From an uncultured Oscillospiraceae bacterium (GTDB lineage: Bacteria; Bacillota; Clostridia; Oscillospirales; Ruminococcaceae), in contig CAZLMO010000001.1 of the NCBI GenBank assembly GCA_964560915.1, positions 1 through 57,695 on the forward strand: a DNA stretch of 57,695 bases, in the 5' to 3' direction. A program made the position numbers and the translations under genes. Below, piece by piece: positions 30,308 to 42,139 of this stretch (position 1 is its first letter; the number at the start of each line of letters is the position of its first letter). The notes beneath the pieces are model-generated. The model saw only the letters and a program-made list of their open reading frames with translations. It was not told where the DNA came from and made no database searches.

Positions 30308-30317
30308 TATTTGAAGG

Positions 30318-30354
30318 CCCCTTGCAGAAAATACAAGGGGTCTTTTTTTTTTTT
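30318..30354 (+). terminator. rho-independent terminator ending the late/lysis operon
   Basis: Stem CCCCTTG / CAAGGGG followed by a T-rich tail (TCT12). Confidence 0.85.
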
Positions 30355-30380
30355 CATTAAAAACATACTCTATAATGAAA
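30354..30380 (+). promoter_or_regulatory. phage promoter-like motif copy 1 (variant)
   Basis: TCATTAAAAACATACTC-TATAAT-GAAA. Matches the family consensus except the first base. Confidence 0.5.
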
Positions 30381-30403
30381 TAATATTTGAAAGGATGTTT
30401 GAG

Positions 30404-30538
30404 ATGGAATTTAATATAGCAATGATAGTTTGGTTGTTTGGTACCTTTATAGGTTCGGCAATTATAGCTGCAGGAGTTGTAAAATTCTGTACAAGAAACG
30501 ACGATAAAGAAGATGATTTCGAAGAAGAAGCTAACTAA
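30404..30538 (+). CDS. small membrane protein (44 aa)
   Basis: GAAAGGA RBS. TM helix IAMIVWLFGTFIGSAIIAAGVV with an acidic tail. The stop lies in the terminator loop. Confidence 0.55.
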   Translation: MEFNIAMIVWLFGTFIGSAIIAAGVVKFCTRNDDKEDDFEEEAN

Positions 30539-30550
30539 GCTTCTTTCTTT
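30525..30550 (+). terminator. intrinsic terminator
   Basis: Stem AAGAAGCT / AGCTTCTT, loop AACTA containing the TAA stop, T-rich tail. Confidence 0.65.
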
Positions 30551-30577
30551 GCAATAAAAACACGGCATATAATGAAA
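30551..30577 (+). promoter_or_regulatory. phage promoter-like motif copy 2
   Basis: GCAATAAAAACACGGCA-TATAAT-GAAA. Confidence 0.6.
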
Positions 30578-30660
30578 AGGAATAAGTATCCTGAGACGAT
30601 TTGAATAAGTGCGCAACTTATTGGCAGATCTGTGGAACTTATTCTTTTCTTTGTTTTTCT
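30578..30660 (+). ncRNA. candidate small RNA / attenuator (no ORF)
   Basis: Lies downstream of motif copy 2 with no RBS-led ORF before the next promoter. GAATAAGT occurs at 30580 and 30603; ACTTATT(C) occurs at 30616 and 30637. These allow nested or mutually exclusive hairpins. The outer stem is followed by TTTTCTTTGTTTTTC. Confidence 0.4.
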
Positions 30661-30764
30661 CATATTTTTAAGCGTTTTCTCTGAAAAAGTGACCCTCGAG
30701 GATGCCCTACAAACGATTTTTATTTGAAACGAATACTATTGTATAGGCCCTATTTCTAACAAAT

Positions 30765-30791
30765 GCAACTTAAACATGTTCTATAATGAAA
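30765..30791 (+). promoter_or_regulatory. phage promoter-like motif copy 3
   Basis: GCAACTTAAACATGTTC-TATAAT-GAAA. Confidence 0.6.
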
Positions 30792-30816
30792 GAATAATTC
30801 GAAAGTGGTGGATTAG

Positions 30817-30915
30817 ATGGGATTAGTATTAAGCATAGTTGTGTATACATTTATGATGGGAGTACTGGTGATATTAGGAAGCCTCGAAAAAGGTTCATAT
30901 CAAGGGAAGCACTAA
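30817..30915 (+). CDS. small membrane protein (32 aa)
   Basis: Not in the ORF track (<60 aa). GTGGTGGA RBS-like. Sequence MGLVLSIVVYTFMMGVLVILGSLEKGSYQGKH. Shares its GKH-stop-terminator end with 30998-31150. Confidence 0.45.
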   Translation: MGLVLSIVVYTFMMGVLVILGSLEKGSYQGKH

Positions 30916-30927
30916 GCTTCTCTTTTT
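30904..30927 (+). terminator. intrinsic terminator
   Basis: Stem GGGAAGC / GCTTCTC, loop ACTAA containing the stop, T5. The 25 nt at 30903-30927 are identical to 31138-31162. Confidence 0.65.
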
Positions 30928-30947
30928 GCGTTATATTTCTTTCCTTT

Positions 30948-30974
30948 GCAATTAAAACATGGCCTATAATGAAA
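30948..30974 (+). promoter_or_regulatory. phage promoter-like motif copy 4
   Basis: GCAATTAAAACATGGCC-TATAAT-GAAA. Confidence 0.6.
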
Positions 30975-30997
30975 GAATAATTAAAGGAGAGATTTAA

Positions 30998-31150
30998 ATG
31001 ACAATGGATATGCAAATTTTAAATGCTGAACTACAAAAATTATCAATGCAAACCGCGAAGGTTTATTTGGTGTTTATGGTAGCCATGGCAGTAGTACTTG
31101 TAATCCGTACATTAAATGAGAAAGGTTATTTTTATAGAGGGAAGCACTAA
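30998..31150 (+). CDS. small membrane protein (50 aa)
   Basis: Not in the ORF track. RBS AAAGGAGAG. TM helix VYLVFMVAMAVVLVI. Ends in GKH-stop inside the terminator loop. Confidence 0.5.
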   Translation: MTMDMQILNAELQKLSMQTAKVYLVFMVAMAVVLVIRTLNEKGYFYRGKH

Positions 31151-31162
31151 GCTTCTCTTTTT
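31139..31162 (+). terminator. intrinsic terminator (duplicate of 30904-30927)
   Basis: Same GGGAAGC-ACTAA-GCTTCTC-TTTTT sequence. Confidence 0.65.
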
Positions 31163-31175
31163 CTATCGATCGATC

Positions 31176-31202
31176 GCAACAATTACACGGCACATAATGA
31201 AT
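31176..31202 (+). promoter_or_regulatory. phage promoter-like motif copy 5
   Basis: GCAACAATTACACGGCA-CATAAT-GAAT. Confidence 0.5.
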
Positions 31203-31268
31203 AGGGGGCATGGAATAATATGGCCTCTTAAATTTTTCAAAAGGAAGGTGTTAATACTATGCAAGACC

Positions 31269-31343
31269 GCGAGCCTATTTGGGATGAGATTGAGGCTGAT
31301 GTTAATGCTGTTGCGAAAAACAAGGGTATGTAACTGAGACACA
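31269..31343 (+). CDS. possible 24-aa leader peptide
   Basis: AAGGAAGG RBS 8 nt upstream. Sequence MQDREPIWDEIEADVNAVAKNKGM. Very short, so speculative. Confidence 0.2.
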
Positions 31344-31373
31344 AATTTCCAAAAAACGTAGGAGGACAAACGA

Positions 31374-32168
31374 ATGGACTTTAGTTCAGTGCAGCGAGGC
31401 GTAAAAAACCTCGGGGGAGTAATTTCTAAAAACAGTCCACATATTTTAACAGGGTTAGGATGCGCAGGAGTATTTACAACTGCCATTTTAACAGGCCGTG
31501 CAACTTTAAAAGCGCATACCATTTTAGAGCGAGAAGAGGAATATAGAAAAGAGCAGAATAAAGACTCTTATTCAGAACCTCTTCCCCCAATGGAAGTTGT
31601 GCAATTAACATGGAAGACCTTTGTTCCCCCAGTACTTATGGGATTAACTTCTATTGCATGTATCGTAGGGGCCAACACAATCAGTGCAAATCGCAATGCG
31701 GCTATTGCAGCGTTATATTCTTTAAGCGAGACTGCGTTTCGCGAATATAAGGACAAGGTTGTAGAAGAAGTTGGTAAAACAAAAGAACGAGCAATTCGAG
31801 ACAGCATTTCACAAGATCATATTAATGCGCGTCCGGTGAACACAAGCACCGTTATTGTCACTGGTCAGGGGGATGTACTGTGCCATGATGCGATGTCAAA
31901 AAGATATTTTAGATCCAGTCCGGAAAAAATCCGTCAGGTGGTGGCAGATTTAGACGATTTGCTTCGATTGGAGTCCTGGATACCACTTAATGAATTTTAT
32001 TATCGATTACATATGGATACATGCGATCTTGGTGCAAATTGTGGTTTTAATCCTTATAAGGGGAATGGACGAGTTGAAATTGATTATAATAGCAGCCTCA
32101 CTCCAGAGGGCATTCCTTGCCTTGAAGTTAGTGCGAAAACATATCCTAATCCAAATTGGATACCATAA
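31374..32168 (+). CDS. membrane-anchored protein, paralog A of 41177-42121
   Basis: RBS TAGGAGGA. Shares with the 41177 product P.IL.G.G..GV..T..L...ATLKA..IL.E and N.A..AAY.L.E.AF..Y...V..E.G. Resembles an uncharacterised phage family (possibly DUF6353-type; unverified). Confidence 0.6.
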   Translation: MDFSSVQRGVKNLGGVISKNSPHILTGLGCAGVFTTAILTGRATLKAHTILEREEEYRKEQNKDSYSEPLPPMEVVQLTWKTFVPPVLMGLTSIACIVGANTISANRNAAIAALYSLSETAFREYKDKVVEEVGKTKERAIRDSISQDHINARPVNTSTVIVTGQGDVLCHDAMSKRYFRSSPEKIRQVVADLDDLLRLESWIPLNEFYYRLHMDTCDLGANCGFNPYKGNGRVEIDYNSSLTPEGIPCLEVSAKTYPNPNWIP

Positions 32169-32171
32169 AAC

Positions 32172-32198
32172 GCACATAAAACTTGCCCCATAATGGAA
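32172..32198 (+). promoter_or_regulatory. phage promoter-like motif copy 6
   Basis: GCACATAAAACTTGCCC-CATAAT-GGAA. The 29 nt at 32167-32195 are identical to 35256-35284. Confidence 0.55.
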
Positions 32199-32215
32199 AG
32201 AAAGGAGATGGGAAA

Positions 32216-32500
32216 ATGACAATTAATTTACCCAAAACAATGAAATCAAAAATCAAAGACGAGAGGTCTAAGGTTTTCACACAGATGTGTAAACCAGAAA
32301 TTTCTCCCCAAGAATGGGAGCTATTAAACAGAAAGTATCAAGCATATTCGGACATGATTAAACCATCATGGACGATTACGCCTGACGCAATCTTGTTTGC
32401 GGCTACTAATTTGGGCGGGATCTTGTTGGTACTCAACTATGAGAAACTGGACATTATACGTAGTAAGGCGTTTGGCTTATTGTTCAAGGGAAGGGTTTAA
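32216..32500 (+). CDS. small protein with C-terminal TM helix (94 aa)
   Basis: ATG at 32216 lies 8 nt after AAGGAG. The stop lies in the terminator loop. Confidence 0.55.
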   Translation: MTINLPKTMKSKIKDERSKVFTQMCKPEISPQEWELLNRKYQAYSDMIKPSWTITPDAILFAATNLGGILLVLNYEKLDIIRSKAFGLLFKGRV

Positions 32501-32518
32501 AGGGCCCTTCTCCTTTTT
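32490..32518 (+). terminator. intrinsic terminator
   Basis: Stem GAAGGG / CCCTTC with the TAA stop in the loop, then T5. Confidence 0.6.
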
Positions 32519-32558
32519 GTGTCGCCTCATAAATAAACGAAACGAAAGGAAGAACGAA

Positions 32559-32819
32559 ATGAAAAAACAATTAGTTACTTTAGGTCTGATCGCAGGTGGC
32601 GCTTATATTATGGGGAAGGTTATATGGATAGTCGCCGAGGTTAGTTTTAAATTCGGAGAAATGGTCGGCGAAGTAGAAGCGACAGCTAATGAATTGGATA
32701 GACAGCGACAAGAAAGTTATTACAATGATACGTACAAAGCAACTAGAAGACGTAATCGTGATCGCCGTATTACTTACAGAACATACTCTGAAAAAGGAGA
32801 GGGTGAGGGTGATATCTAA
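32559..32819 (+). CDS. small membrane protein (86 aa)
   Basis: RBS AAAGGAAG. TM helix LVTLGLIAGGAYIMGKVIWIVA with a basic/acidic tail. Confidence 0.55.
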   Translation: MKKQLVTLGLIAGGAYIMGKVIWIVAEVSFKFGEMVGEVEATANELDRQRQESYYNDTYKATRRRNRDRRITYRTYSEKGEGEGDI

Positions 32820-33075
32820 CGAATTTGATCGCCTATTCGAGGTACTAGGTGAAACAGGAGAATCTTTATTGCGATTGGCTGAACAGATATCGGCATATTG
32901 CTCCGCGGATTCGATGGCTACGCTATTTTGTTACGTTGACAATATTGATCTTTTTTATACTCCATCCAAGCCGTATGCTATGTATTTACCTTGTAGATAT
33001 CATAAACCCCGATGGCTTACAAAGGTGTTTTATCAACGGGTTCGTAGGGAACCCTATCAGCAAAGAAAATACTAA
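32809..33075 (+). CDS. hypothetical protein (88 aa)
   Basis: GTG at 32809 lies 8 nt after AAAGGAGAG and overlaps the previous stop. Confidence 0.45.
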   Translation: MISNEFDRLFEVLGETGESLLRLAEQISAYCSADSMATLFCYVDNIDLFYTPSKPYAMYLPCRYHKPRWLTKVFYQRVRREPYQQRKY

Positions 33076-33120
33076 TACACAAGAAACATGTGAAATTGAT
33101 TAAAAGAAAGAGGAATAAAA

Positions 33121-33291
33121 ATGAAATTAACTGAAGTATTAATTACCACTCTGCTCAAGCACGGTGCCTTTGGCGAAATGAAAAATTTCAAAACCGAAAT
33201 CTTTATTCCGGGCGAAACCAAGGATGAAAATGTTAAAATTGTCGTCACAGCAGATGCTTTACAAATTCGTATGGATAGGGAGGCAAAATAA
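33121..33291 (+). CDS. hypothetical protein (56 aa)
   Basis: Not in the ORF track. RBS AAGAGGAA. Stop overlaps the next start (TAATG). Confidence 0.45.
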   Translation: MKLTEVLITTLLKHGAFGEMKNFKTEIFIPGETKDENVKIVVTADALQIRMDREAK

Positions 33292-33665
33292 TGTTACAGG
33301 ATCAACAAATAGGGATATATATTGGCGACAATGCTGCTAAATATACATGCGTTTTTAAAGGTTTTCTTGGCTCATCGAGCACGATTACTGCTTTACCAAC
33401 CACATATGAAATGGGGTGGATGTATATTGTAGATAATTCGGGGAAGTTAAAAACGTACGCTGGACAGCTTGTTGACGTTGGCGATTGTATAATGGCAATG
33501 GTTGATCGAAATGGTGTCGATAATCAAGACGACGACTGGCTTGTTCTACCCATAAACTGGCAGCCTTCGAGCAAGGAATGTGCGGCCTTAATCATTAACG
33601 AAAAAATTTCAGCACTTGACCATCAAGCAGAAATAAACAGAAATGAACGAAAGAAAAATGTTTGA
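33291..33665 (+). CDS. hypothetical protein with tail-fibre-like domain
   Basis: GWMYIVDNSGKLKTYAGQLVDVGDCIMAMVDRNGVDNQDDDWLVLPIN aligns with fibre 1 GWAYKVIEAGTIKGKVCEVGDLLVATVDRASAGVDADWLVLQTN. Confidence 0.55.
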   Translation: MLQDQQIGIYIGDNAAKYTCVFKGFLGSSSTITALPTTYEMGWMYIVDNSGKLKTYAGQLVDVGDCIMAMVDRNGVDNQDDDWLVLPINWQPSSKECAALIINEKISALDHQAEINRNERKKNV

Positions 33666-34224
33666 TCCATTTGCTTCGCAAAGGAAGGCCATCGTACTAT
33701 ATCGCGATATCTTTTGGATCTGCCTGACAATCGTAACATTTTGGCTATTCTTCTCGTGGTCCCCCGTACTCTCTACAACTGTCGAGCCCCTTCCTCCCTT
33801 TGAGATTTCTAAATCCGTGATATTTACGCCGTCTCCTCCACCTCGATATGGATTTACAGATAGTGATATTTACTTAATGTCTGTACTCTTGACCGGGTCG
33901 AAGGACGTTGGTGGGGATGGAGAGTTTGACTTTGATTATGGCCGACAGGATGAGTTTGATCAAATTTCTTTAGTTTTATGTGTAGTTATGAACCGAGTTC
34001 AATCCAATTTATACCCAAATACTGTAGCCGAGGTTATTTGGCAACGAAATCAGTTTTCTCCAATGGTTCTATGGAAGGATGCACTTCCACAAGTTAGTGA
34101 TATTTCTCTTACAACCGTAACACATTGGTGTAATGCGTATGACGCCTATGATATTAGTATACAAACTATCCCAGAAGACCATTTATATTTTACAGGAGAC
34201 GGATTTAAAAATTATAGTCGATAA
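33643..34224 (+). CDS. membrane-anchored SleB-like cell wall hydrolase
   Basis: N-terminal TM helix IFWICLTIVTFWLFF. LVLCVVMNRVQSNLYPNTVAEVIWQRNQFSPM matches the SleB/Hydrolase_2 signature (VV.NRv.s..fP.tv..V..q..QFs). Confidence 0.65.
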   Translation: MNERKMFDPFASQRKAIVLYRDIFWICLTIVTFWLFFSWSPVLSTTVEPLPPFEISKSVIFTPSPPPRYGFTDSDIYLMSVLLTGSKDVGGDGEFDFDYGRQDEFDQISLVLCVVMNRVQSNLYPNTVAEVIWQRNQFSPMVLWKDALPQVSDISLTTVTHWCNAYDAYDISIQTIPEDHLYFTGDGFKNYSR

Positions 34225-34234
34225 GGAGGACGCC

Positions 34235-34609
34235 GTGCATATTTTTACATTTGTAATAGACTATTGGAGCGACATTCTTGTGATATTACTATTACTTATC
34301 TTGACGCTGATCGGGATTCATCACTGGCTCAAGATATTAATTCGAGCATCTCGAAGAATGCCTGTTAAAGAAAAAATTGCATACACAACACGACTTCTTG
34401 CCAACTTAGTGCCGATGGTTGCAGTTCTTAAAACCGAAGCATTTCGTAAATATGGCCCAGATGATGAAGCTGGTAAGAATTCGATACTTTATCGAGCGTA
34501 TCTAATTGATGAGCTCTATAAAAGGGTTCCGGATGAGTATAAAAAATATATAAGTATTGAAAACCTTGATGCAATTATTGCCGGAGCTAACCGTACAGAC
34601 GAGATCTAA
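34235..34609 (+). CDS. membrane protein (124 aa)
   Basis: GTG lies 4 nt after TAAGGAGGA. TM helix ILVILLLLILTLIGI. Confidence 0.5.
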   Translation: MHIFTFVIDYWSDILVILLLLILTLIGIHHWLKILIRASRRMPVKEKIAYTTRLLANLVPMVAVLKTEAFRKYGPDDEAGKNSILYRAYLIDELYKRVPDEYKKYISIENLDAIIAGANRTDEI

Positions 34610-34614
34610 GGCTC

Positions 34615-34641
34615 GCATATAAAACCTCCCGTATAATGGGA
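34615..34641 (+). promoter_or_regulatory. phage promoter-like motif copy 7
   Basis: GCATATAAAACCTCCCG-TATAAT-GGGA. Confidence 0.55.
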
Positions 34642-34670
34642 GTTATAATAAGAAAGGATGGAGAAAGATT

Positions 34671-34937: not shown

Positions 34938-34954
34938 AGCCTCTCTTCTTTTTT
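34928..34954 (+). terminator. intrinsic terminator
   Basis: Stem AGAGGC / GCCTCT, loop GTAAA containing the TAA stop, T-rich tail. Confidence 0.65.
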
Positions 34955-34974
34955 AAAAAGAAAGGAATAAAATC

Positions 34975-35375: not shown

Positions 35376-35402
35376 CATTATTAAAGAAAGGAGAAAGGCT
35401 CT

Positions 35403-36290: not shown

Positions 36291-36294
36291 GCGA

Positions 36295-37014
36295 ATGAAT
36301 GAACAAAAATTAGCCCGCGGACTGAATGATATTGCCCCTAGTAATTCCGATAAGGTTGTACGAAGCAAGCCTGCTGCCGAGAAAGTCAATCGAGCCTATC
36401 AATCAGTGCAGGACAAGAAGTCGGAAACAAGAAAAAAAATGACACCGGTAGTTAAAGGCCCCGTTCAGCAAATAAAACCAACTTTCTGGGATAAGGTTAA
36501 AACCACTTTTCTTGGAGAGGGCGTTAATGCGCGCGATTTTGTTTTGTATGATATTTTGGTTCCCGCATTTCGAAATACTATGAGCGACATGGGAATTGGG
36601 CTTGTAGAAATGGTGTTTGGTGGGGGAAGGGTCCGTGGACGCGACTATGATAGTCGAATTATTCGAGATCGGGGTCGCTCTTACATTGACTATAATTCAG
36701 TAGCAGATAGAGATCGAAGAAGTGGTAGGGTTGACGGACGTCGAGAAATGGATCGAGGCGACCGAGCACGACATGAATTTAGTAATATTCGCTACAATAG
36801 TCGCGGAGAAGCTGAAGATGTTTTAGCTCGACTAGTAGCCCTTACTATCCAATACCAAGAAGTTACGATTGCGGCATTCTATGAACTCTCAAACATTGAT
36901 CCAACTCCTTCGGACGAAAATTATGGGTGGACCGATCTACGAGAAGCATATGTCGAACAAGTTCGAAACGGGTATGTTATTCGACTTCCGCATCCTCAAC
37001 CATTATTAATATAA
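36295..37014 (+). CDS. hypothetical protein (Arg/Asp-rich centre)
   Basis: 239 aa, tightly coupled to the ligase gene. No recognisable motif. Confidence 0.5.
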   Translation: MNEQKLARGLNDIAPSNSDKVVRSKPAAEKVNRAYQSVQDKKSETRKKMTPVVKGPVQQIKPTFWDKVKTTFLGEGVNARDFVLYDILVPAFRNTMSDMGIGLVEMVFGGGRVRGRDYDSRIIRDRGRSYIDYNSVADRDRRSGRVDGRREMDRGDRARHEFSNIRYNSRGEAEDVLARLVALTIQYQEVTIAAFYELSNIDPTPSDENYGWTDLREAYVEQVRNGYVIRLPHPQPLLI

Positions 37015-37033
37015 AGAAAGAAGGTATTTGATA

Positions 37034-37234
37034 ATGCAAAATGTTCATGATGCGCTTCTATGCGAAATTACGCGAGTTCAAAACTTAATAAAATTATATG
37101 AAACAATTCCCCTCGGATATTTGGCGGTACTCCTGATGCAAGAGGAGATTTGTCGTGCTCAAAAAGCCATATCAGATGGAGATACTGTTACAATGATCAC
37201 GAGCTTACGAGATCTTAAGCTTTTTAAAGAATAA
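37034..37234 (+). CDS. hypothetical protein (66 aa)
   Basis: ATG after GAAGGTATTTGATA. The same AAGAAAGAAGGTATTTGA junction recurs before 37252. Confidence 0.45.
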   Translation: MQNVHDALLCEITRVQNLIKLYETIPLGYLAVLLMQEEICRAQKAISDGDTVTMITSLRDLKLFKE

Positions 37235-37251
37235 GAAAGAAGGTATTTGAG

Positions 37252-37488
37252 ATGGCGAGACCAATTGAAAACGGCCCTTTGGATTTTTGTCCACTGGAGT
37301 GTCCTCATATGGATATTAGTATTGAGAAAAGCGTTACATACGCCAATTTACAACCCTATTTAATCACACACATGCTTGTTTGTAGCCACGAAGAAGCATG
37401 CATAATGTGGCGAAATAGAGGAAATAAAACGTTCCTTGCTGGAACCTCTGCGAGCCAAACTATTGATGATCCAGGAAAGAAAGTATAA
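37252..37488 (+). CDS. hypothetical Cys-rich protein (78 aa)
   Basis: Shares the RBS junction with the previous gene. Stop overlaps the next start (TAATG). Confidence 0.45.
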   Translation: MARPIENGPLDFCPLECPHMDISIEKSVTYANLQPYLITHMLVCSHEEACIMWRNRGNKTFLAGTSASQTIDDPGKKV

Positions 37489-37640
37489 TGCCTCCGACGG
37501 TGCCGGAGATGCGAGACTGGATATTGGCGGCATATCCTGGAGGGAAAGAATGGAAAAAGAAAATCGAAAAGAAAACCGATGCCCAGGTTCTAGCTATGTA
37601 CAAAAACCTTGTAAAACAAGGTAAAATTAAAGGAGCATGA
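37488..37640 (+). CDS. hypothetical small protein (50 aa)
   Basis: Not in the ORF track. The frame is coupled by TAATG at its start and ATGA at its end. Sequence MPPTVPEMRDWILAAYPGGKEWKKKIEKKTDAQVLAMYKNLVKQGKIKGA. Preferred over the uncoupled track ORF 37436-37624. Confidence 0.5.
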   Translation: MPPTVPEMRDWILAAYPGGKEWKKKIEKKTDAQVLAMYKNLVKQGKIKGA

Positions 37641-37642
37641 AA

Positions 37643-37972
37643 ATGTCAGAGCCAGTTAATGGTTTTATGATCGGCATCGATCGCCAAAATGCGACCGACA
37701 TTCAAGTTGTACAAGTTGTCCGCTATCTTAAAGGAGGAATTCACGAGGTTGTCGACACCTTCTACGGGGATACGGCCGAACAAATGTATAAATTTATGAC
37801 GGAACAACCAATTGCATTCAGGCAAATGATTAATTCTTCATATGGTTTAACAGGACCCGTATGCACGCTTGAAGAAGCAAACGCAGTATGTTCAAATAAG
37901 GAAATTAAAGGTTTTAAGTATTTACGAGTAGGAAAGGAAGAAAGAAATGAGAAAAACAACTCTGATTTATAG
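37643..37972 (+). CDS. hypothetical protein (109 aa)
   Basis: ATG lies 7 nt after AAAGGAG; the track start at 37637 is too close to the RBS. Confidence 0.5.
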   Translation: MSEPVNGFMIGIDRQNATDIQVVQVVRYLKGGIHEVVDTFYGDTAEQMYKFMTEQPIAFRQMINSSYGLTGPVCTLEEANAVCSNKEIKGFKYLRVGKEERNEKNNSDL

Positions 37973-38300
37973 TATCTTGGTTATTATTGTGTTGGTTGTT
38001 TCGGGGTTATTTCTTACGGGGCTTGTGGACGGATATAATAAACGGGTGGTCCAAGAAGAAACCTTAAGTTATATTCTTGTTCAAGAAACCAATACTTACT
38101 ATTTACATAAACTTGAGTCATGGAGCAAACCAGACGCCAACACCGTTATTTTTACATGCGCTGTGTGTAAAAATACAATTCGCGTACCAGAGTCTCGTGT
38201 TATTATGTACGAAAAAATAACCGTTAATACAATATGGGCAAATTATGTAGATGTGTGTAGCGGAACCGCGGCCGATTGGCACGAACTATTAGGAGAATAG
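37947..38300 (+). CDS. membrane protein (117 aa)
   Basis: N-terminal TM helix LIYSILVIIVLVVSGLFLTGLV. Confidence 0.5.
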   Translation: MRKTTLIYSILVIIVLVVSGLFLTGLVDGYNKRVVQEETLSYILVQETNTYYLHKLESWSKPDANTVIFTCAVCKNTIRVPESRVIMYEKITVNTIWANYVDVCSGTAADWHELLGE

Positions 38301-38313
38301 GGGGATCCAGTAA

Positions 38314-38730
38314 ATGCGCATAACAAAAACCGTAACGGCAGTGACCCCTAGATATGCCGATAACGGCTCGGCGGGTATGGATTTATATGTAGATACTGCT
38401 GAATCATATACCCTTCAACCAGGCGAAACCTATTATTTGCCAACAGGAATTCGAGTAGAAATACCGCGAAATTTCTTTGGGGTTATTTATCCGCAATCTA
38501 ATCTCTTTAGAAAAGGGTTGGTACTAGCAAATGCGGTGACAGTCCTTAATGCTACAGATCGCGGAGAGATAATGTTGGCGGTAAAGAATGTGTTCTCTGA
38601 TATAGTTCGGATCAACGGCCAATGGGGACTTAGATCTCCATTGGCGCAATTGGTTATTCAACCCTATCGTTTTGAAAAAATTGAATTGGATGATATTCTT
38701 GAACAAGAGTCGCTAAGCATTAAGATTTGA
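38314..38730 (+). CDS. dut: dUTP diphosphatase
   Basis: GSAGMDLY, GVIYPQSNL and TDRGEI match trimeric dUTPase motifs. Confidence 0.8.
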   Translation: MRITKTVTAVTPRYADNGSAGMDLYVDTAESYTLQPGETYYLPTGIRVEIPRNFFGVIYPQSNLFRKGLVLANAVTVLNATDRGEIMLAVKNVFSDIVRINGQWGLRSPLAQLVIQPYRFEKIELDDILEQESLSIKI

Positions 38731-38731
38731 T

Positions 38732-38758
38732 GCAATAAAAACATGACCTTTAATGAAA
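38732..38758 (+). promoter_or_regulatory. phage promoter-like motif copy 9
   Basis: GCAATAAAAACATGACC-TTTAAT-GAAA. Confidence 0.5.
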
Positions 38759-38771
38759 GGAAGTGTTTTAA

Positions 38772-39005
38772 ATGTTAGAAAATAAAAAGGTGAATGGAGT
38801 TCATGCAAGCAGATATATTGCTAGTTGGGGGCGAGTTGGGGGAAGCCTGCGATACGGTACGGGACTTGAGGATTTTAGCGATTGGCTGAGATCATTAGGG
38901 ATTTCGGATGATGATGTCGCGGATATCCGCGAAATGGCCTCAATGGGGCGATTGGAGTTGGAACAATCGGCACGATATTTTATACACATGCAGAACAACA
39001 AATGA
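38772..39005 (+). CDS. hypothetical soluble protein (77 aa)
   Basis: RBS AAAGGAAG. Has its own promoter motif and terminator. Confidence 0.55.
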   Translation: MLENKKVNGVHASRYIASWGRVGGSLRYGTGLEDFSDWLRSLGISDDDVADIREMASMGRLELEQSARYFIHMQNNK

Positions 39006-39013
39006 AAAAAGAA

Positions 39014-39038
39014 GAAAGGGCATTGCCTTTTCTTTTTC
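39014..39038 (+). terminator. intrinsic terminator
   Basis: Stem GAAAGGG / CCTTTTC (one G-U pair) followed by a T-rich tail (TTTTTC). Confidence 0.6.
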
Positions 39039-39065
39039 GCAATTAAATCCTATGTTATAATAGGA
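39039..39065 (+). promoter_or_regulatory. phage promoter-like motif copy 10
   Basis: GCAATTAAATCCTATGT-TATAAT-AGGA. Confidence 0.5.
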
Positions 39066-39092
39066 ACTAATAAAATTTAGGAGGAACCGGAA

Positions 39093-39299
39093 ATGACTAA
39101 ACTGGGAGCAAGAATTATATTGGCGGTATCCGTATTTAGCGTTGCAGCTGGAAGTGCTATGATAATTGCGTTATCAGAGCAGATTGGCTATGCGCAAGGT
39201 CGCAGTGATACCTATCAAGAATTAGTAAGGCGAATACGTGAAATGGCTGCCGAGGACGATCAAAAATTAGAAGACCAAAAGAATGAAGAAGCTGAATAA
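39093..39299 (+). CDS. small membrane protein (68 aa)
   Basis: RBS TAGGAGGAA. TM helix IILAVSVFSVAAGSAMIIAL with an acidic tail. The stop lies in the terminator hairpin. Confidence 0.6.
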   Translation: MTKLGARIILAVSVFSVAAGSAMIIALSEQIGYAQGRSDTYQELVRRIREMAAEDDQKLEDQKNEEAE

Positions 39300-39316
39300 G
39301 CTTCTCTTTCTTTTCT
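39287..39316 (+). terminator. intrinsic terminator
   Basis: Stem AGAAGCT / AGCTTCT, loop GAATA, with the TAA stop spanning the loop/stem boundary. T-rich tail. Confidence 0.65.
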
Positions 39317-39353
39317 TGCACAGGTTGACGGAACATACAATCATTAAGCCCTC

Positions 39354-39380
39354 GCGGAATTATCTCCTCCTATAATAGAA
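39354..39380 (+). promoter_or_regulatory. phage promoter-like motif copy 11 (divergent upstream half)
   Basis: GCGGAATTATCTCCTCC-TATAAT-AGAA. Confidence 0.45.
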
Positions 39381-39402
39381 GTAAAATAAAAGGAGGAATA
39401 GT

Positions 39403-39546
39403 ATGATTACACTACTGATTATGGTGGTTCTTTTGAGTGTAATATGCGGATTGTTGTGTAAATTTGTATCGGCCCTTGTGGGTGTGATATTTATAATGGC
39501 AGCGATGGCATTTACACTTCGAATGGCCAAAGAGATCTTAAGGTGA
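39403..39546 (+). CDS. small membrane protein (47 aa)
   Basis: Not in the ORF track. RBS AAAGGAGGAA. Sequence MITLLIMVVLLSVICGLLCKFVSALVGVIFIMAAMAFTLRMAKEILR. Confidence 0.55.
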   Translation: MITLLIMVVLLSVICGLLCKFVSALVGVIFIMAAMAFTLRMAKEILR

Positions 39547-39567
39547 GAGCTACGGCTCTCCTTTTTT
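39545..39567 (+). terminator. intrinsic terminator
   Basis: Stem GAGAGC / GCTCTC with a TACG loop, then T6. Confidence 0.75.
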
Positions 39568-39573
39568 CGCCTC

Positions 39574-39600
39574 GCAGAATCTTCTTACCCTATAATGGAA
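39574..39600 (+). promoter_or_regulatory. phage promoter-like motif copy 12
   Basis: GCAGAATCTTCTTACCC-TATAAT-GGAA. Confidence 0.55.
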
Positions 39601-39626
39601 TGAATATTTGAAAGGAAGGTATTATT

Positions 39627-39812
39627 ATGAACACGAGACAGAGAGAAACGAGTCGGGAGATTAGGCTTTGGATCACAACAATTATTAGCCCGGTCGTAAC
39701 GATCGGACTGACAGTATTGACATGTGACCCAACACTAAGAGCGAAGGTTCGCAATTACTCGAAAGCAAAAGTAGCCTGGGTCAAAAATAAATTCCACAAA
39801 AAGGAGAAGTAG
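39627..39812 (+). CDS. small membrane protein (61 aa)
   Basis: RBS AAAGGAAGG. TM helix LWITTIISPVVTIGLTVL with a basic tail. Confidence 0.6.
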   Translation: MNTRQRETSREIRLWITTIISPVVTIGLTVLTCDPTLRAKVRNYSKAKVAWVKNKFHKKEK

Positions 39813-39817
39813 GGTGA

Positions 39818-39840
39818 GAGAGCTACGGCTCTCCTTTTTT
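39818..39840 (+). terminator. intrinsic terminator
   Basis: GAGAGC-TACG-GCTCTC followed by T6. Confidence 0.75.
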
Positions 39841-39846
39841 CGCCTC

Positions 39847-39873
39847 GCAGAATCTTCTTACCCTATAATGGAA
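39847..39873 (+). promoter_or_regulatory. phage promoter-like motif copy 13
   Basis: GCAGAATCTTCTTACCC-TATAAT-GGAA. Confidence 0.55.
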
Positions 39874-39897
39874 GAAGATTTATAAGGAGGAAGCAAT

Positions 39898-40035
39898 ATG
39901 AAAAAGATTGGGTATTTTGTAGTGGGCGTGTTCGCGTCAATAATTGGCGTGTTTGCAAAGACTACAGAGCTTGGTGAAATTGTTGTTAGTAATTATAATT
40001 TCTACAAAGAATGGAATAAGAAAGGAGGAAAGTAA
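39898..40035 (+). CDS. small membrane protein (45 aa)
   Basis: Not in the ORF track. RBS TAAGGAGGAA. Sequence MKKIGYFVVGVFASIIGVFAKTTELGEIVVSNYNFYKEWNKKGGK. Confidence 0.55.
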   Translation: MKKIGYFVVGVFASIIGVFAKTTELGEIVVSNYNFYKEWNKKGGK

Positions 40036-40098
40036 ATGTTTGAATTTGCTGTTGCTGTTGCAATTATTTATTGGGTCTGGAAGGATTCCAAGAAGTAA
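40036..40098 (+). CDS. 20-aa hydrophobic micro-protein
   Basis: ATG lies directly after the upstream stop, with AAAGGAGGAA 6 nt upstream. Sequence MFEFAVAVAIIYWVWKDSKK. A terminator follows. Confidence 0.35.
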   Translation: MFEFAVAVAIIYWVWKDSKK

Positions 40099-40113
40099 AG
40101 TGATAATAAAAGT

Positions 40114-40148
40114 AAAGAGGGCAATACTTACTCCCTCTTTCTTTATTC
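40114..40148 (+). terminator. intrinsic terminator
   Basis: Stem AAAGAGGG / CCCTCTTT with an 11-nt loop and a T-rich tail. Confidence 0.6.
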
Positions 40149-40175
40149 GCAGAAAATACTAATTATATAATGAAG
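40149..40175 (+). promoter_or_regulatory. phage promoter-like motif copy 14
   Basis: GCAGAAAATACTAATTA-TATAAT-GAAG. Confidence 0.5.
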
Positions 40176-40195
40176 CGAAGTGAAAGGAGGAATAA

Positions 40196-40387
40196 ATGAT
40201 GATGAAGGCGGCTTTAAAAGTAATGGTAGGGCTCAGTGTGGGAGCGGCGATCGGAGCAACGGGAATACTCGTTGGAATGGTTTACACTGCTGCCGTTGTA
40301 CTGACAAGTCCAACCGTATTCGAGTGTGTCGAAAAAAATCATAAAGAAGTCCAAGAAGCATTGGCAGAAAAGAAAGAGGCGGAATAA
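40196..40387 (+). CDS. small membrane protein (63 aa)
   Basis: RBS AAAGGAGGAA. Gly/Ala-rich TM helices. Ends in KEAE-stop inside the terminator loop. Confidence 0.6.
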   Translation: MMMKAALKVMVGLSVGAAIGATGILVGMVYTAAVVLTSPTVFECVEKNHKEVQEALAEKKEAE

Positions 40388-40401
40388 GCCTCTTCTTTTT
40401 G
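40375..40401 (+). terminator. intrinsic terminator
   Basis: Stem AGAGGC / GCCTCT, loop GGAATAA containing the TAA stop, T-rich tail. Confidence 0.65.
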
Positions 40402-40411
40402 TTTATCGATC

Positions 40412-40438
40412 GCAACATTTACAACTCATATAATGAAA
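40412..40438 (+). promoter_or_regulatory. phage promoter-like motif copy 15
   Basis: GCAACATTTACAACTCA-TATAAT-GAAA. Confidence 0.55.
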
Positions 40439-40462
40439 CTATATGAAAGGAAGGAAATAGAA

Positions 40463-40777
40463 ATGAAAAAAGACAAAGGCAGAAAACCGGAGGTTGTGGA
40501 AGTTGTGGAACTTAATGAAGAACAGATTCCCGAAGTAGTAGAAGAAGTAACGAAAGTTGCGAAACCAAAATGGTCATTAAAGAAGAAATTAATGATCGGT
40601 GGAGGCGTACTCGCTGGATTGGCGATTGGGGCAATAGCTCTGATCAATAAACAGGGAGGCGCGAACATCGATCAGGTGGAAGCTGAAGATGATTATGCGG
40701 ATAGCGCTGACGTTGTGGAAACTACAACCGAGGAGGTCCAAGAAGAAGAAGTTAAAAAAGAACAAGGACAACTTTAG
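40463..40777 (+). CDS. acidic single-pass membrane protein (104 aa)
   Basis: ATG after GAAAGGAAGGAAA; the track start at 40433 is the ATG inside the promoter motif. TM helix LMIGGGVLAGLAIGAIALI. Confidence 0.55.
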   Translation: MKKDKGRKPEVVEVVELNEEQIPEVVEEVTKVAKPKWSLKKKLMIGGGVLAGLAIGAIALINKQGGANIDQVEAEDDYADSADVVETTTEEVQEEEVKKEQGQL

Positions 40778-40819
40778 GATGAATGTAATGTTATTGCATT
40801 ACTAACCTAAATATGGGAG

Positions 40820-40851
40820 AGACTTATTGGAAACAATGAGTCTTCTTTTTG
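40820..40851 (+). terminator. intrinsic terminator
   Basis: Stem AGACTTATTG / CAATGAGTCT (one G-U pair), GAAA loop, T-rich tail. Confidence 0.65.
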
Positions 40852-40854
40852 TCG

Positions 40855-40881
40855 TAATGAAATCCTGCTCTATAATGAGAA
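40855..40881 (+). promoter_or_regulatory. phage promoter-like motif copy 16 (variant)
   Basis: GTAATGAAATCCTGCTC-TATAAT-GAGA. Confidence 0.45.
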
Positions 40882-40909
40882 CTGATATTTAGAGAAGGAG
40901 GAAACGACA

Positions 40910-41137
40910 ATGCGAAAGGTATTAAGTTGGATACGTCAAGACTTTAGAAGAGTCTATTGGACAATAAAATATGAAAGTAATTACAAAACACCAACATGGG
41001 TGATTGTATTATGGTACATATTATTATTCCCAATAGGCGCACTATTATGGGTGGTGTATATGATTTATAGTGCATATCGCGGATATCGTCTCGAGAAGCA
41101 AATACTCGAGATATTAGGAGAAGACGAAGAGAGTTAA
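40910..41137 (+). CDS. small membrane protein (75 aa)
   Basis: RBS GAAGGAGGAAA. TM helices WVIVLWYILLFPIGALLWVVYMIY. The stop lies in the terminator loop. Confidence 0.6.
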   Translation: MRKVLSWIRQDFRRVYWTIKYESNYKTPTWVIVLWYILLFPIGALLWVVYMIYSAYRGYRLEKQILEILGEDEES

Positions 41138-41153
41138 AGCTCTCTTTTCTTTT
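41128..41153 (+). terminator. intrinsic terminator
   Basis: Stem AGAGAG / CTCTCT, loop TTAAAG containing the TAA stop, T-rich tail. Confidence 0.6.
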
Positions 41154-41176
41154 ACCAAACGAAGGAGGAAATTATA

Positions 41177-42121: not shown

Positions 42122-42139
42122 AAAGCGATGTGTAAAGAT

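What the first reader, a model, noticed from the sequence alone, without database searches (positions are those of the whole stretch)
30311..41160. Early region built from about 16 monocistronic promoter - mini membrane protein - terminator cassettes
Phage early operons are usually polycistronic. Here nearly every small gene has its own copy of the promoter motif and its own intrinsic terminator.

Most products are 20-105 aa single- or double-pass membrane proteins. Their starts are 30404, 30817, 30998, 32216, 32559, 34671, 34975, 39093, 39403, 39627, 39898, 40036, 40196, 40463 and 40910. Many have acidic or basic tails, and none has a recognisable function.

This resembles the host-takeover module of Bacillus phage SPO1 in concept, but with a far more regular unit structure. 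The density of membrane-targeted mini-proteins suggests host takeover, superinfection exclusion or anti-defence functions.
Basis: partly seen in the sequence, partly recalled or inferred. Interest (0 to 1): 0.65.

Follow-up and report, generated by a model that had tools for sequence, protein, structure and literature searches.

The report
Swappable mini-gene cassettes with lineage-specific promoter
The promoter, small membrane-protein gene and terminator cassettes are real, but they are the standard and functionally unexplained accessory module of a known phage group that carries its own RNA polymerase, and the shared 30-base promoter may belong to that polymerase.

Summary
One 30-nt motif (TCGCAA-N-AAAAACA-N5-TATAAT-GARA) occurs 18 times in the window, always on the + strand, and 16 copies lie in 30371-40871. 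Fourteen hairpin+T-run terminators follow gene ends.

Together these give 13 complete promoter-ORF-terminator units, of which 12 are monocistronic and one is bicistronic. About half of the span (32559-34609 and 35403-38730) is ordinary polycistronic DNA with recognisable genes: DNA ligase, dUTPase and a SleB-like hydrolase. Three listed ORFs have no promoter of their own, and two promoters drive no ORF.

The layout is not peculiar to this phage. It is the small-membrane-protein array already noted in Arthrobacter AM/AU, Gordonia DJ and Rhodococcus Pepy6/Poco6 phages. This window is a low-GC, uncultured member of that group.

The same motif appears in phages of Gordonia, Streptomyces and Arthrobacter, partly in Lactococcus phages, and in 44 of 46 long metagenomic relatives. 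It is nearly absent from cellular genomes. It has no -35 element and co-occurs with a YonO-like, HTH-fused RNA polymerase.

The cassette cargo is hypervariable: 251 of 323 clusters are singletons.

Which polymerase reads the motif is unresolved. The functions of the mini-proteins are unknown.

The parts
30352..30552 (+). Cassette 1. Promoter with -10 at 30371, g1 at 30404-30538 (44 aa, one TM plus an acidic tail), terminator at 30526-30544.
30549..30668 (+). Promoter (-10 at 30568) with no ORF behind it. It would give a hairpin RNA of about 70 nt that ends in a U-run. Candidate small RNA.
   Evidence: fold z = -1.96; no Rfam match
30763..30932 (+). Cassette 2. Promoter at 30782, g2 at 30817-30915 (32 aa, TM), terminator at 30902-30924.
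30946..31167 (+). Cassette 3. Promoter at 30965, g3 at 30998-31150 (50 aa, TM), terminator at 31137-31159. The terminator is 93% identical over 30 nt to that of cassette 2.
31174..32168 (+). Promoter at 31193, then g4 (31259-31333, 24 aa) and g5 (31374-32168, 264 aa, DUF6353 paralog a). No terminator.
32170..32523 (+). Cassette. Promoter at 32189, g6 at 32216-32500 (94 aa, phrog_5818, conserved partner of DUF6353), terminator at 32486-32515.
32559..34609 (+). Polycistronic block g7-g12 with no motif promoter. It includes g11 (33643-34224), a TM-anchored protein with a Hydrolase_2 (SleB-like) domain.
34613..34957 (+). Cassette. Promoter at 34632, g13 at 34671-34937 (88 aa, two hydrophobic segments, phrog_7539), terminator at 34922-34949.
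34975..35268 (+). g14 (97 aa, N-terminal TM). It has no promoter or terminator of its own.
35259..35385 (+). Promoter at 35278 followed by a conserved tRNA-like non-coding element with D-arm and T-arm look-alikes and no anticodon loop.
35403..38730 (+). Polycistronic block g15-g22. g15 is an ATP-dependent DNA ligase, g16 is phrog_4079 and g22 is a dUTPase. No internal motif or terminator.
38730..39040 (+). Cassette. Promoter at 38749, g23 at 38772-39005 (77 aa, soluble), terminator at 39014-39032. Its homolog in relative L194 sits in the other array.
39037..39319 (+). Cassette. Promoter at 39056, g24 at 39093-39299 (68 aa, TM plus an acidic tail), terminator at 39280-39311.
39352..39570 (+). 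Cassette. Promoter at 39371, g25 at 39403-39546 (47 aa, two TM; 68% and 53% identical in L192 and L194), terminator at 39542-39562.
39545..39873 (+). The g26 cassette (g26 at 39627-39812, 61 aa, TM plus a basic tail). It is bracketed by a perfect 56-nt direct repeat made of a terminator plus a promoter (39545-39600 and 39818-39873).
39845..40148 (+). Bicistronic cassette. Promoter at 39864, g27 at 39898-40035 (45 aa) and g28 at 40036-40098 (20 aa), terminator at 40114-40140.
40147..40407 (+). Cassette. Promoter at 40166, g29 at 40196-40387 (63 aa, TM), terminator at 40368-40399.
40410..40852 (+). Cassette. Promoter at 40429, g30 at 40463-40777 (104 aa, acidic-TM-acidic; this family recurs beside DUF6353 genes in relatives), terminator at 40819-40844.
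40852..41155 (+). Cassette. Promoter at 40871, g31 at 40910-41137 (75 aa, TM), terminator at 41126-41147.
41177..42165 (+). g32 (314 aa, DUF6353 paralog b). It has no motif promoter, and a terminator lies at 42137-42165. It marks the end of array 2.
47017..47162 (+). A further cassette outside the stated region. Promoter at 47036, an 18-aa hydrophobic ORF at 47078-47134, and a 15-bp-stem terminator at 47129-47162.
53584..57411 (+). Promoter at 53603 with a hairpin+T-run leader, followed by the endonuclease, exonuclease and RNA polymerase operon. The polymerase is a 956-aa YonO-like two-barrel enzyme (54541-57411) with the motif GADFDGD and with N- and C-terminal HTH domains.

Best explanation
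What it is. The region is the accessory small-membrane-protein array of a lytic siphovirus. The phage belongs to the supergroup that encodes a YonO-like RNA polymerase: Arthrobacter AM/AU, Gordonia DJ, Streptomyces Rima-like, Rhodococcus Pepy6/Poco6, Lactococcus 1706-like and Faecalibacterium phages.

How it is built. It consists of autonomous expression slots. Each slot has:
- a ~30-nt lineage-specific promoter (TCGCAA-N-AAAAACA-N5-TATAAT-GARA);
- a short leader with a strong Shine-Dalgarno sequence, about 35 nt from the first base of the -10 to the start codon;
- an ORF of 18-105 aa, usually a one- or two-pass membrane protein;
- an intrinsic terminator whose T-run abuts the next promoter.
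Two arrays (30371-32515 and 38749-41150) each end at a DUF6353 gene. They flank polycistronic housekeeping blocks.

Shown. The motif, its strand bias and the terminators are real. The same architecture is conserved across the whole lineage. The cargo is hypervariable while the junctions are conserved. One cassette is bracketed by identical terminator-promoter repeats.

Inferred.
- The slots are expressed before the motif-free 30-kb structural operon.
- The terminators are partial, because the promoter-less conserved units g7-g12, g14 and g32 lie behind them.
- Cargo is exchanged by recombination between junctions.
- The cargo acts on the host envelope, in exclusion, takeover or counter-defence.
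- The promoter depends on a phage-encoded recogniser. I lean slightly (about 50%) to the phage's own HTH-fused RNA polymerase reading it. Host sigma-A polymerase, with or without a phage factor, is at about 40-45%.
For: Motif:
- 18 copies, all on the + strand, and none in the late genes.
- -35 matches are at background level (2.6 against 2.5 of 6), and only 1 of 18 has TGn.
- Canonical sigma-70-like sites are not enriched.

Terminators are enriched only in this region.

Lineage-wide conservation:
- The motif is present in Gordonia phage Secretariat, Arthrobacter phage Arcadia and Streptomyces phage Namo. Lactococcus phage P078 has the core without the TCGCA box.
- In 80 loci chosen only by DUF6353 homology there are 400 hits on the gene strand and 2 on the other. 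44 of 46 loci >=8 kb have at least 3 hits.
- Downstream ORFs in those loci have a median of 66 aa. 63% have a TM-like segment against 23% of control ORFs, and 86% are followed by a terminator. The IMG/VR set gives the same picture.

Specificity to the phage lineage:
- The full motif gives 9 hits in 596 Gb of cellular genomes. All are MAG contigs, and five of the nine carry homologs of the lineage's genes (DUF6353, g6, g16 or g23).
- DUF6353 and the polymerase co-occur genus by genus in cultured phages.
- The polymerase carries DFDGD and conserved HTH domains.

Hypervariable cargo:
- 664 unique ORFs form 323 clusters, of which 251 are singletons.
- The closest relatives, L192 and L194, share the backbone at 56-82% identity but few array genes. 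The g23 homolog sits in the other array in L194.
- A 56-nt perfect terminator+promoter repeat flanks g26.

Precedent: the non-virion two-barrel polymerase of Thermus phage P23-45 transcribes early and middle genes from its own conserved multi-copy promoter motif (PMC10770324).
Against: - There is no transcript data for this phage or for any relative found, so timing, start sites and terminator efficiency are all untested.
- The motif contains a perfect sigma-A -10 hexamer.
- The polymerase operon is itself preceded by a motif copy. A non-packaged phage polymerase would therefore need host transcription to get started.
- YonO, the best-studied relative, transcribes a late operon from a single promoter. 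The polymerase gene here occupies the slot just upstream of the late genes.
- Twelve of the 17 small cassette proteins compared have no homolog at all, so their translation rests only on SD sequences and the hydrophobicity bias.
- The contig in run X2 that lacks the g26 cassette has depth 2.5 and spans a repeat longer than the assembler's word. It may be a repeat collapse.
Confidence: 0.6

Rival explanations
1. The motif is simply a strong host sigma-A promoter of the '-10 only' class. Host RNA polymerase alone transcribes all cassettes early. The phage polymerase is used only for the 30-kb late operon, as YonO is in SPbeta. The conserved upstream box is an operator for a phage regulator or a context element.
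For: - The TATAAT hexamer is perfect in nearly all copies.
- The downstream GARA resembles the GGGA discriminator that sigma region 1.2 favours (established knowledge, not tested here).
- Canonical intrinsic terminators follow the cassettes.
- The polymerase operon lies behind a motif copy in all five phages examined.
- YonO is a late-gene polymerase.
- The polymerase gene lies directly upstream of the structural genes.
Against: - There is no -35 element and no TGn, which makes a weak promoter for a Firmicute sigma-A.
- Positions outside the -10 (TCGCA, ACA, GAGA) are conserved between phages of Actinobacteria and low-GC hosts.
- The motif is practically absent from cellular genomes.
- The only near-consensus sigma-70-type intergenic promoter lies upstream of the late genes (57622-57651).
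Confidence: 0.4
2. The repeats are not promoters. They are binding sites for a phage regulator, like the stoperators of cluster A mycobacteriophages, or they are recombination or mobile-element scars. The arrays would then be read as one long transcript.
For: - The sites are asymmetric, strictly limited to one strand and intergenic, as stoperators are.
- Identical 56-nt repeats flank one cassette.
Against: - Every copy carries TATAAT at a fixed distance of about 35 nt from an SD-preceded start codon.
- Every copy sits just after a terminator. Such a placement is pointless without re-initiation.
- Two copies drive ORF-less structured RNAs, and one of those is conserved.
Confidence: 0.07
3. The small membrane proteins are a lysis-timing set (holins, antiholins, spanin-like proteins), not early accessory genes.
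For: - Array 1 starts directly after a holin-like gene (29738-30307, phrog_13712).
- g24 has a weak Rz-like spanin hit with E = 0.0056.
- g11 is a membrane-anchored cell-wall hydrolase.
Against: - Fourteen or more such genes are far more than lysis needs.
- They turn over almost completely between relatives that share 56-82% backbone identity.
- In the AM, AU and DJ relatives the lysis genes lie at the other end of the genome, yet the arrays stay in place.
- Array 2 is embedded among nucleotide-metabolism and replication genes.
Confidence: 0.1

Closest known systems
Arrays of small membrane-protein genes in Arthrobacter cluster AM/AU, Gordonia cluster DJ and Rhodococcus Pepy6/Poco6 phages (Klyczek 2017, PMC5513430; Henson 2022, PMC9671010)
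   Same: - Same position, after the tail genes and before the replication genes.
- Same synteny: DUF6353 x2, primase-polymerase, helicase, and endonuclease-exonuclease-RNA polymerase as the last operon.
- All genes on one strand.
- Same TATAAT-containing intergenic motif plus terminators.
   Different: - This member is uncultured, has 40% GC and probably infects a Clostridia host.
- Its endolysin lies after the tail genes.
- Nearly all array cargo is unrelated to the cultured phages.
- In the papers I searched, neither the cross-phylum conservation of the motif nor its link to the polymerase was discussed.
T4-type PeSL elements (promoter-early stem-loop mobile regulatory cassettes; Arbiol et al. 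2010, recalled from memory and not read here)
   Same: Repeated junctions of an early promoter plus a stem-loop flank small novel ORFs in hyperplastic regions. Direct repeats of the junction can mediate gain and loss of ORFs. Here the g26 cassette is flanked by a 56-nt perfect repeat.
   Different: - There is no sequence or phylogenetic relation.
- T4 PeSL promoters are standard sigma-70 early promoters, whereas this motif has no -35.
- Recombination products are not demonstrated here (one search is inconclusive).
Bacillus phage SPO1 host-takeover module
   Same: A dense run of small genes with many promoters and terminators, some with N-terminal hydrophobic segments, presumed to act on the host early in infection.
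   Different: - No protein homology.
- SPO1 uses canonical sigma-A early promoters and the module lies in its terminal redundancy.
- Here the promoter is a lineage-specific motif without a -35, and the arrays lie mid-genome.
Morons of temperate phages
   Same: A single gene with its own promoter and terminator, inserted between backbone genes.
   Different: - Morons are individual acquisitions with unrelated promoters, expressed from prophages.
- Here a lytic-type genome (no integrase seen among the proteins scanned) carries tandem slots that all use one shared phage promoter.
Promoter sets of phage-encoded RNA polymerases (T7 class II/III; P23-45 non-virion two-barrel polymerase, PMC10770324)
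   Same: Many copies of one long, highly conserved promoter lie upstream of early and middle genes. The phage encodes a two-barrel single-chain polymerase.
   Different: - Recognition of this motif by the phage polymerase is untested.
- The motif contains a perfect bacterial -10.
- The polymerase gene itself sits behind a copy of the motif.

Membership tests
RNAP-encoding siphovirus supergroup with small-membrane-protein arrays (AM/AU/DJ/Rima-like/Pepy6-Poco6/1706-like) | YonO/QDE-1-like single-chain RNA polymerase with a DxDGD motif and terminal HTH domains, encoded as the last large gene before the structural genes | tested here: met
   phrog_4291 at 1020 bits. GADFDGD at residues 552-558. 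HTH_38 and Sigma70_r4_2 domains. 41-45% identity to the polymerases of cultured members. Described in 10.1101/842583.
RNAP-encoding siphovirus supergroup with small-membrane-protein arrays (AM/AU/DJ/Rima-like/Pepy6-Poco6/1706-like) | A run of small genes, many encoding membrane proteins, downstream of the tail genes | tested here: met
   The annotated relatives show the same. The literature describes it.
RNAP-encoding siphovirus supergroup with small-membrane-protein arrays (AM/AU/DJ/Rima-like/Pepy6-Poco6/1706-like) | Two DUF6353 paralogs and a shared backbone (TerL, primase-polymerase, helicase, exonuclease) | tested here: met
   DUF6353 with E = 6e-67 and 3e-55. TerL 75% identical to Gordonia and Streptomyces phages. 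Most cultured records hold two DUF6353 places.
RNAP-encoding siphovirus supergroup with small-membrane-protein arrays (AM/AU/DJ/Rima-like/Pepy6-Poco6/1706-like) | A repeated intergenic motif containing TATAAT, plus terminators, in the mid-genome | tested here: met
   Reported for Vardy.
SPO1-type host-takeover module | Homology to SPO1 gp37-gp60 products | tested here: not met
   tblastn of 16 mini-proteins against 50,697 phage records gave no match at E <= 0.01.
SPO1-type host-takeover module | Canonical sigma-A early promoters (-35 TTGACA, 17 nt, -10 TATAAT) | tested here: not met
   -35 matches at background level, and TGn in 1 of 18 copies.
SPO1-type host-takeover module | Shut-off of host macromolecular synthesis by the products | not testable with these tools
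   Needs expression in a host.
PeSL-like mobile regulatory cassettes | A repeated junction of promoter plus stem-loop flanking small variable ORFs | tested here: met
   Terminator T-run abuts the promoter box. 56-nt perfect repeats flank g26. The cargo is hypervariable.
PeSL-like mobile regulatory cassettes | Recombination between junctions that yields variants with and without a cassette | tested here: inconclusive
   A contig in X2 joins 39544 to 39818, skipping 273 nt, with 56 nt shared by both sides. Its depth is 2.5 and the repeat exceeds the assembler's word length. The g23 homolog sits in a different array in L194.
Cognate promoter of a phage-encoded RNA polymerase | A long conserved motif in many copies that co-occurs with the polymerase gene and is absent from host genomes | tested here: met
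Cognate promoter of a phage-encoded RNA polymerase | Specific initiation by the phage polymerase at the motif, or rifampicin-resistant transcription | not testable with these tools
   No RNA runs hold this phage.

The most novel reading that the evidence does not exclude
The ~30-nt motif (TCGCA box, ACA, TATAAT, GAGA) is the cognate promoter of the HTH-fused, YonO-like single-chain RNA polymerase of this supergroup. It would be the first promoter defined for that polymerase clade. It is conserved between phages of Actinobacteria and Firmicutes. Under this reading the arrays are polymerase-addressed plug-in slots in which any small gene dropped between two junctions is expressed at once. Host sigma-A would use the embedded -10 only to start polymerase synthesis.
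Probability: 0.45. Interest if true: 0.8.

Novelty: new member of a known kind. Interest (0 to 1): 0.55.

Why it matters
The arrays show how a widespread phage lineage keeps a fixed regulatory scaffold and swaps in small membrane-protein genes at a very high rate. The lineage is found in soil, gut and bioreactor samples and infects hosts in two phyla. The arrays are therefore a large, organised reservoir of untested host-interaction factors.

The conserved promoter has no -35 element and always travels with a YonO-like polymerase that carries its own DNA-binding domains. That gives a concrete, testable candidate for how such polymerases find promoters, a question left open for YonO itself. If the pairing holds, it would also provide a compact orthogonal polymerase-promoter pair that works in Gram-positive hosts.

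Tried and rejected
- Nucleotide search of the region against 50,697 phage records found no match.
- No tRNA and no Rfam family at the gathering score or at lax E-values around the two ORF-less promoter units.
- A single-protein search for g32 relatives in IMG/VR found nothing.
- Pfam and PHROG scans of the mini-proteins gave only functionless families (phrog_5818, 7539, 6038) and two sub-threshold hits: Rz-like spanin at E = 0.0056 and STE3 at E = 0.0035.
- tblastn of 16 mini-proteins concatenated into one query against the phage records found no match.
- The DUF6353 structure model has mean pLDDT 75, with long N-terminal helices and a confident C-terminal alpha/beta domain. Foldseek against the PDB found nothing below E = 0.69, so its function stays unknown.
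- I considered a sigma-54-like reading of TCGCA...TTACA. I rejected it because the spacing is wrong and the GG/GC invariants are missing.
- I considered TTACA or AAAACA as a -35 for a second downstream -10. I rejected it because such a hexamer exists in only three cassettes and not in relatives.
- I looked for a tape-measure-fused virion polymerase as in P23-45. The 2589-aa tape measure has no DxDxD motif.
- I compared the HTH recognition helices of five polymerases with their promoter variants by eye. No clear covariation emerged.
- The Summer et al. 2011 paper on Pepy6 and Poco6 could not be retrieved.

Full report
CONTEXT

The window is a complete or nearly complete phage contig of 57.7 kb from a bioreactor metagenome. 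Its two ends overlap by 9 nt. All credible genes lie on the + strand. The gene order is as follows:
- Structural genes at 53-27557, including TerL at 1234-2979 and a 2589-aa tape measure.
- An endolysin with a Cu_amine_oxidN1 wall-binding domain at 27603-28766.
- A holin-like gene at 29738-30307.
- The region of the finding.
- Replication genes: a 5'-3' exonuclease, a 1321-aa primase-polymerase, an SSB and a helicase.
- A 956-aa protein at 54541-57411.

The 956-aa protein matches phrog_4291 at 1020 bits and carries the motif GADFDGD. It has helix-turn-helix domains at both ends. It is the YonO/QDE-1-like putative RNA polymerase already described for a supercluster of actinobacteriophages plus Lactococcus and Faecalibacterium phages (10.1101/842583).

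Yes, in the main.

Promoter motif. Reading the intergenic DNA shows a repeated motif. A PWM built from it finds exactly 18 sites in the window, all on the + strand, at 24.7-41 bits. Nothing scores between 12 and 24.7 bits. Shuffled sequence never exceeds 18.6 bits. Sixteen sites lie between 30371 and 40871. The others are at 47036 and 53603, and none lies in the 30-kb structural part.

Terminators. Hairpin+T-run sites are enriched only here, with 28 found against 10.4 +/- 3.3 expected. The flanks give 20 against 17.2 and 15 against 11.8. Fourteen of them sit exactly at + strand gene ends.

ORFs. Most have a hydrophobic segment of TM length followed by an acidic or basic tail.

Tally. There are 13 complete promoter-ORF-terminator units, 12 monocistronic and one bicistronic (g27+g28).

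WHERE THE DESCRIPTION NEEDS CORRECTING

- About half of the span is ordinary tightly packed polycistronic DNA: g7-g12 at 32559-34609 and g15-g22 at 35403-38730.
- These blocks contain recognisable genes: an ATP-dependent DNA ligase, a dUTPase and a membrane-anchored SleB-like hydrolase. There are also two DUF6353 paralogs, g5 and g32.
- g7 (32559), g14 (34975) and g32 have no motif promoter and lie directly behind terminators. Either those terminators leak or another promoter type exists.
- g28 (40036) shares a unit with g27.
- The cassette at 38772 encodes a soluble 77-aa protein and was not listed.
- Two promoters (30568 and 35278) drive no ORF.
- An extra cassette with an 18-aa hydrophobic ORF lies outside the region at 47036-47162.

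THE PROMOTER IS NOT A CANONICAL SIGMA-A PROMOTER

The consensus is TCGCAA-N-AAAAACA-N5-TATAAT-GARA. The best match to TTGACA at 16-18 nt upstream averages 2.6 of 6, against 2.5 at random positions. Only one copy has TGn. Canonical sigma-70-like sites are not enriched in the region, with 35 found against 38.5 expected. The conserved upstream box ends 13 nt from the -10 hexamer, which is too close for a -35 element.

THE ARCHITECTURE BELONGS TO A WHOLE LINEAGE

Most of these carry 3-16 PWM hits on a single strand, and 55 encode DUF6353 homologs.
- A logo from 430 unique sites shows near-invariant TCGCA, C at -7, TATAAT and GA(G/A)A, with the T-run of the preceding terminator directly upstream.
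- An unbiased test used 80 metagenome loci chosen only by DUF6353 homology (896 kb). These gave 400 hits on the gene strand and 2 on the other strand. Of the 46 loci >=8 kb, 44 have at least three hits.
- In that set the first SD-preceded ORF after a promoter has a median of 66 aa, and 88% are <=110 aa. Of the small ones, 63% have a TM-like segment against 23% of control ORFs. 86% of the small ones are followed by a hairpin+T-run. The IMG/VR set gives the same numbers.
- Cultured relatives have the same synteny and the same motif:
  - Gordonia phage Secretariat: TTCGCA-N3-ATTACA-N5-TATAATGAGACCCC.
  - Arthrobacter phage Arcadia: TCGCGTAAATTACA-N5-TATAAT.
  - Streptomyces phage Namo: TCGCA-N4-TTACA-N5-TATA(A/G)TGAGACCCC.
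  - Lactococcus phage P078 keeps TTTTACA-N5-TATAATGA(A/G)A but not the TCGCA box.
- In Secretariat, Arcadia, Namo and this window, one copy, degenerate in the three actinophages, precedes the endonuclease-exonuclease-polymerase operon.
- DUF6353 and the polymerase co-occur genus by genus in 237 and 250 phage records. Lactococcus phages have the polymerase only.
- The full motif occurs only nine times in 596 Gb of bacterial and archaeal genomes. All nine are on MAG contigs, and five of them carry homologs of genes in this region (DUF6353, g6, g16 or g23).

WHAT IS ALREADY IN PRINT

- Klyczek et al. [quoted passage not shown] They note similar arrays in Rhodococcus phages Pepy6 and Poco6.
- Henson et al. 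2022 (PMC9671010) report five copies of a 50-bp intergenic motif with TATAAT, predicted terminators and 13 TM or signal-sequence genes in the middle of Gordonia phage Vardy, cluster DJ.

The kind of structure is therefore known, though unexplained. In the papers I could search, I found no discussion of the motif's conservation across host phyla or of a link to the polymerase.

CARGO VERSUS SCAFFOLD

- 664 unique cassette ORFs from about 190 loci fall into 323 clusters, of which 251 are singletons.
- Of this window's 17 small cassette proteins, only g6, g13, g26, g30 and g31 have relatives in that set. None matches any of 50,697 phage records, and none has a functional family.
- The two closest relatives, L192 and L194, share the layout tail - array 1 - DUF6353a - g6 ... 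ligase ... dUTPase - array 2 - DUF6353b - exonuclease, at 56-82% backbone identity. They share only g25 and g30 within array 2. The g23 homolog sits in array 1 of L194, again between a terminator and a promoter.
- Within the window, a perfect 56-nt terminator+promoter repeat brackets the g26 cassette. Other junctions are near-identical in pairs.
- A contig from a second sample (X2) joins the two repeat copies and so lacks g26. Its depth is 2.5 and the repeat is longer than the assembler's word, so it could be a collapse. I treat it as suggestive only.

HOW IT MOST LIKELY WORKS

Shown: a conserved regulatory scaffold made of terminator-promoter junctions, carrying hypervariable small cargo that is mostly membrane-targeted.

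Inferred:
- The slots are transcribed before the motif-free structural operon.
- Each terminator attenuates transcription and each promoter boosts it again, so that conserved promoter-less genes behind terminators are still expressed.
- Recombination between junctions adds, removes and moves cargo.
- The cargo acts at the host envelope, in exclusion of other phages, takeover or counter-defence. The turnover fits an arms race.

Which polymerase reads the motif is open.

For a phage-encoded recogniser, most simply the HTH-fused polymerase itself:
- About 30 nt are conserved across host phyla.
- There is no -35 and no TGn.
- The motif is absent from cellular genomes.
- It co-occurs strictly with the polymerase.
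- Conservation extends into the presumptive initiation region (GAGA, and GAGACCCC in the actinophages).
- The non-virion two-barrel polymerase of Thermus phage P23-45 reads early and middle genes from a multi-copy motif of its own (PMC10770324).
- The only near-consensus sigma-70-type intergenic promoter in the window (TTTACA-18-TATAAT, 57622-57651) lies just upstream of the late genes and is followed by two hairpins.

For host sigma-A:
- The -10 hexamer is perfect.
- The terminators are ordinary intrinsic terminators.
- A motif copy lies in front of the polymerase operon itself.
- YonO transcribes a late operon from one promoter.
- The polymerase gene sits where late activators usually sit.

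I put the phage polymerase at about 45-50% and host polymerase, with or without a phage factor, at about 40-45%.

HOST

The endolysin's wall-binding domain has its nearest named relatives in Oscillospiraceae MAG proteins. The genome has 40% GC and strong GGAGG ribosome-binding sites. A Clostridia host is likely but not shown. Members of this lineage are known to have much lower GC content than their actinobacterial hosts.

VERDICT

This is a real, statistically clear feature. It is partly mis-described and is not unique to this phage. It is a new, divergent member of a known but unexplained module. Its value lies in the lineage-wide view and in the testable link between the promoter and the polymerase.

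Noticed in passing
window 35288-35375 (+), downstream of the promoter at 35278: A tRNA-like non-coding element. It has a 5-bp acceptor-like stem (TATGG/CCATA), a D-arm (AGT-AATGGTA-ACT) and a T-arm (GTGG-TTCGAAG-CCAC). A CCGA-TTCG-TCGG hairpin stands where the anticodon arm would be, and relatives carry a 43-nt longer hairpin there. It is 86-93% identical to IMG/VR relatives, while the adjacent ligase gene is only about 67% identical. ARAGORN and Rfam find nothing.
   Followed up: partly
window 30568-30668 (+): A motif promoter with no ORF behind it. It would make a hairpin RNA of about 70 nt ending in a U-run (fold z = -1.96). The sequence is not conserved in the relatives examined.
   Followed up: partly
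window 54541-57411 (+): A YonO-like two-barrel RNA polymerase with three conserved HTH segments. Its N-terminal peptide (HYGTPRxSGRYPWGSG, residues 6-21) is invariant across five phages of Actinobacteria and Firmicutes. The role of that peptide is unknown. A targeting or partner-binding signal is one guess.
   Followed up: partly
window 57622-57695 and 1-52: The only near-consensus sigma-70-type intergenic promoter (TTTACA-18-TATAAT) lies between the polymerase operon and the late genes. It is followed by a G8/C5 hairpin (57660-57688) and a terminator (28-40, TGCCCCGGGGGCA+T6). This could be a late-operon control point or the cos region. The contig ends overlap by 9 nt (CTTCTACAT).
   Followed up: no
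window 53603-53676 (+): The leader between the promoter at 53603 and the endonuclease-exonuclease-polymerase operon folds into two hairpins with a T-rich tail (z = -2.8). It is a possible attenuator limiting polymerase expression.
   Followed up: no
window 47036-47162 (+): An additional cassette inside the replication module: motif promoter, an 18-aa hydrophobic ORF (MLEIIALVVVLVAVDFIG) and a 15-bp-stem terminator.
   Followed up: partly
window 33643-34224 (+): A second cell-wall hydrolase besides the endolysin. It has an N-terminal TM segment plus a SleB-like Hydrolase_2 domain and lies in the non-structural block, followed by another TM protein (g12).
   Followed up: no
L192 9477-10001: In the closest relative, a 174-aa GGDEF-domain protein (putative diguanylate cyclase) sits immediately upstream of DUF6353a, abutting it and sharing one base. 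The window has g4 at that position.
   Followed up: no
window 1234-2979 (+): The large terminase is 75% identical in protein sequence to those of Gordonia and Streptomyces phages, although this genome has 40% GC and probably a Clostridia host. This is an unusually close cross-phylum relationship for a phage core gene.
   Followed up: partly
window 39544-39818, run X2: A 294-nt contig from a second sample of the same study joins the two 56-nt repeats and omits the g26 cassette, with no other differences. Its depth is only 2.5, so it is either a cassette-less variant or an assembly collapse.
   Followed up: partly
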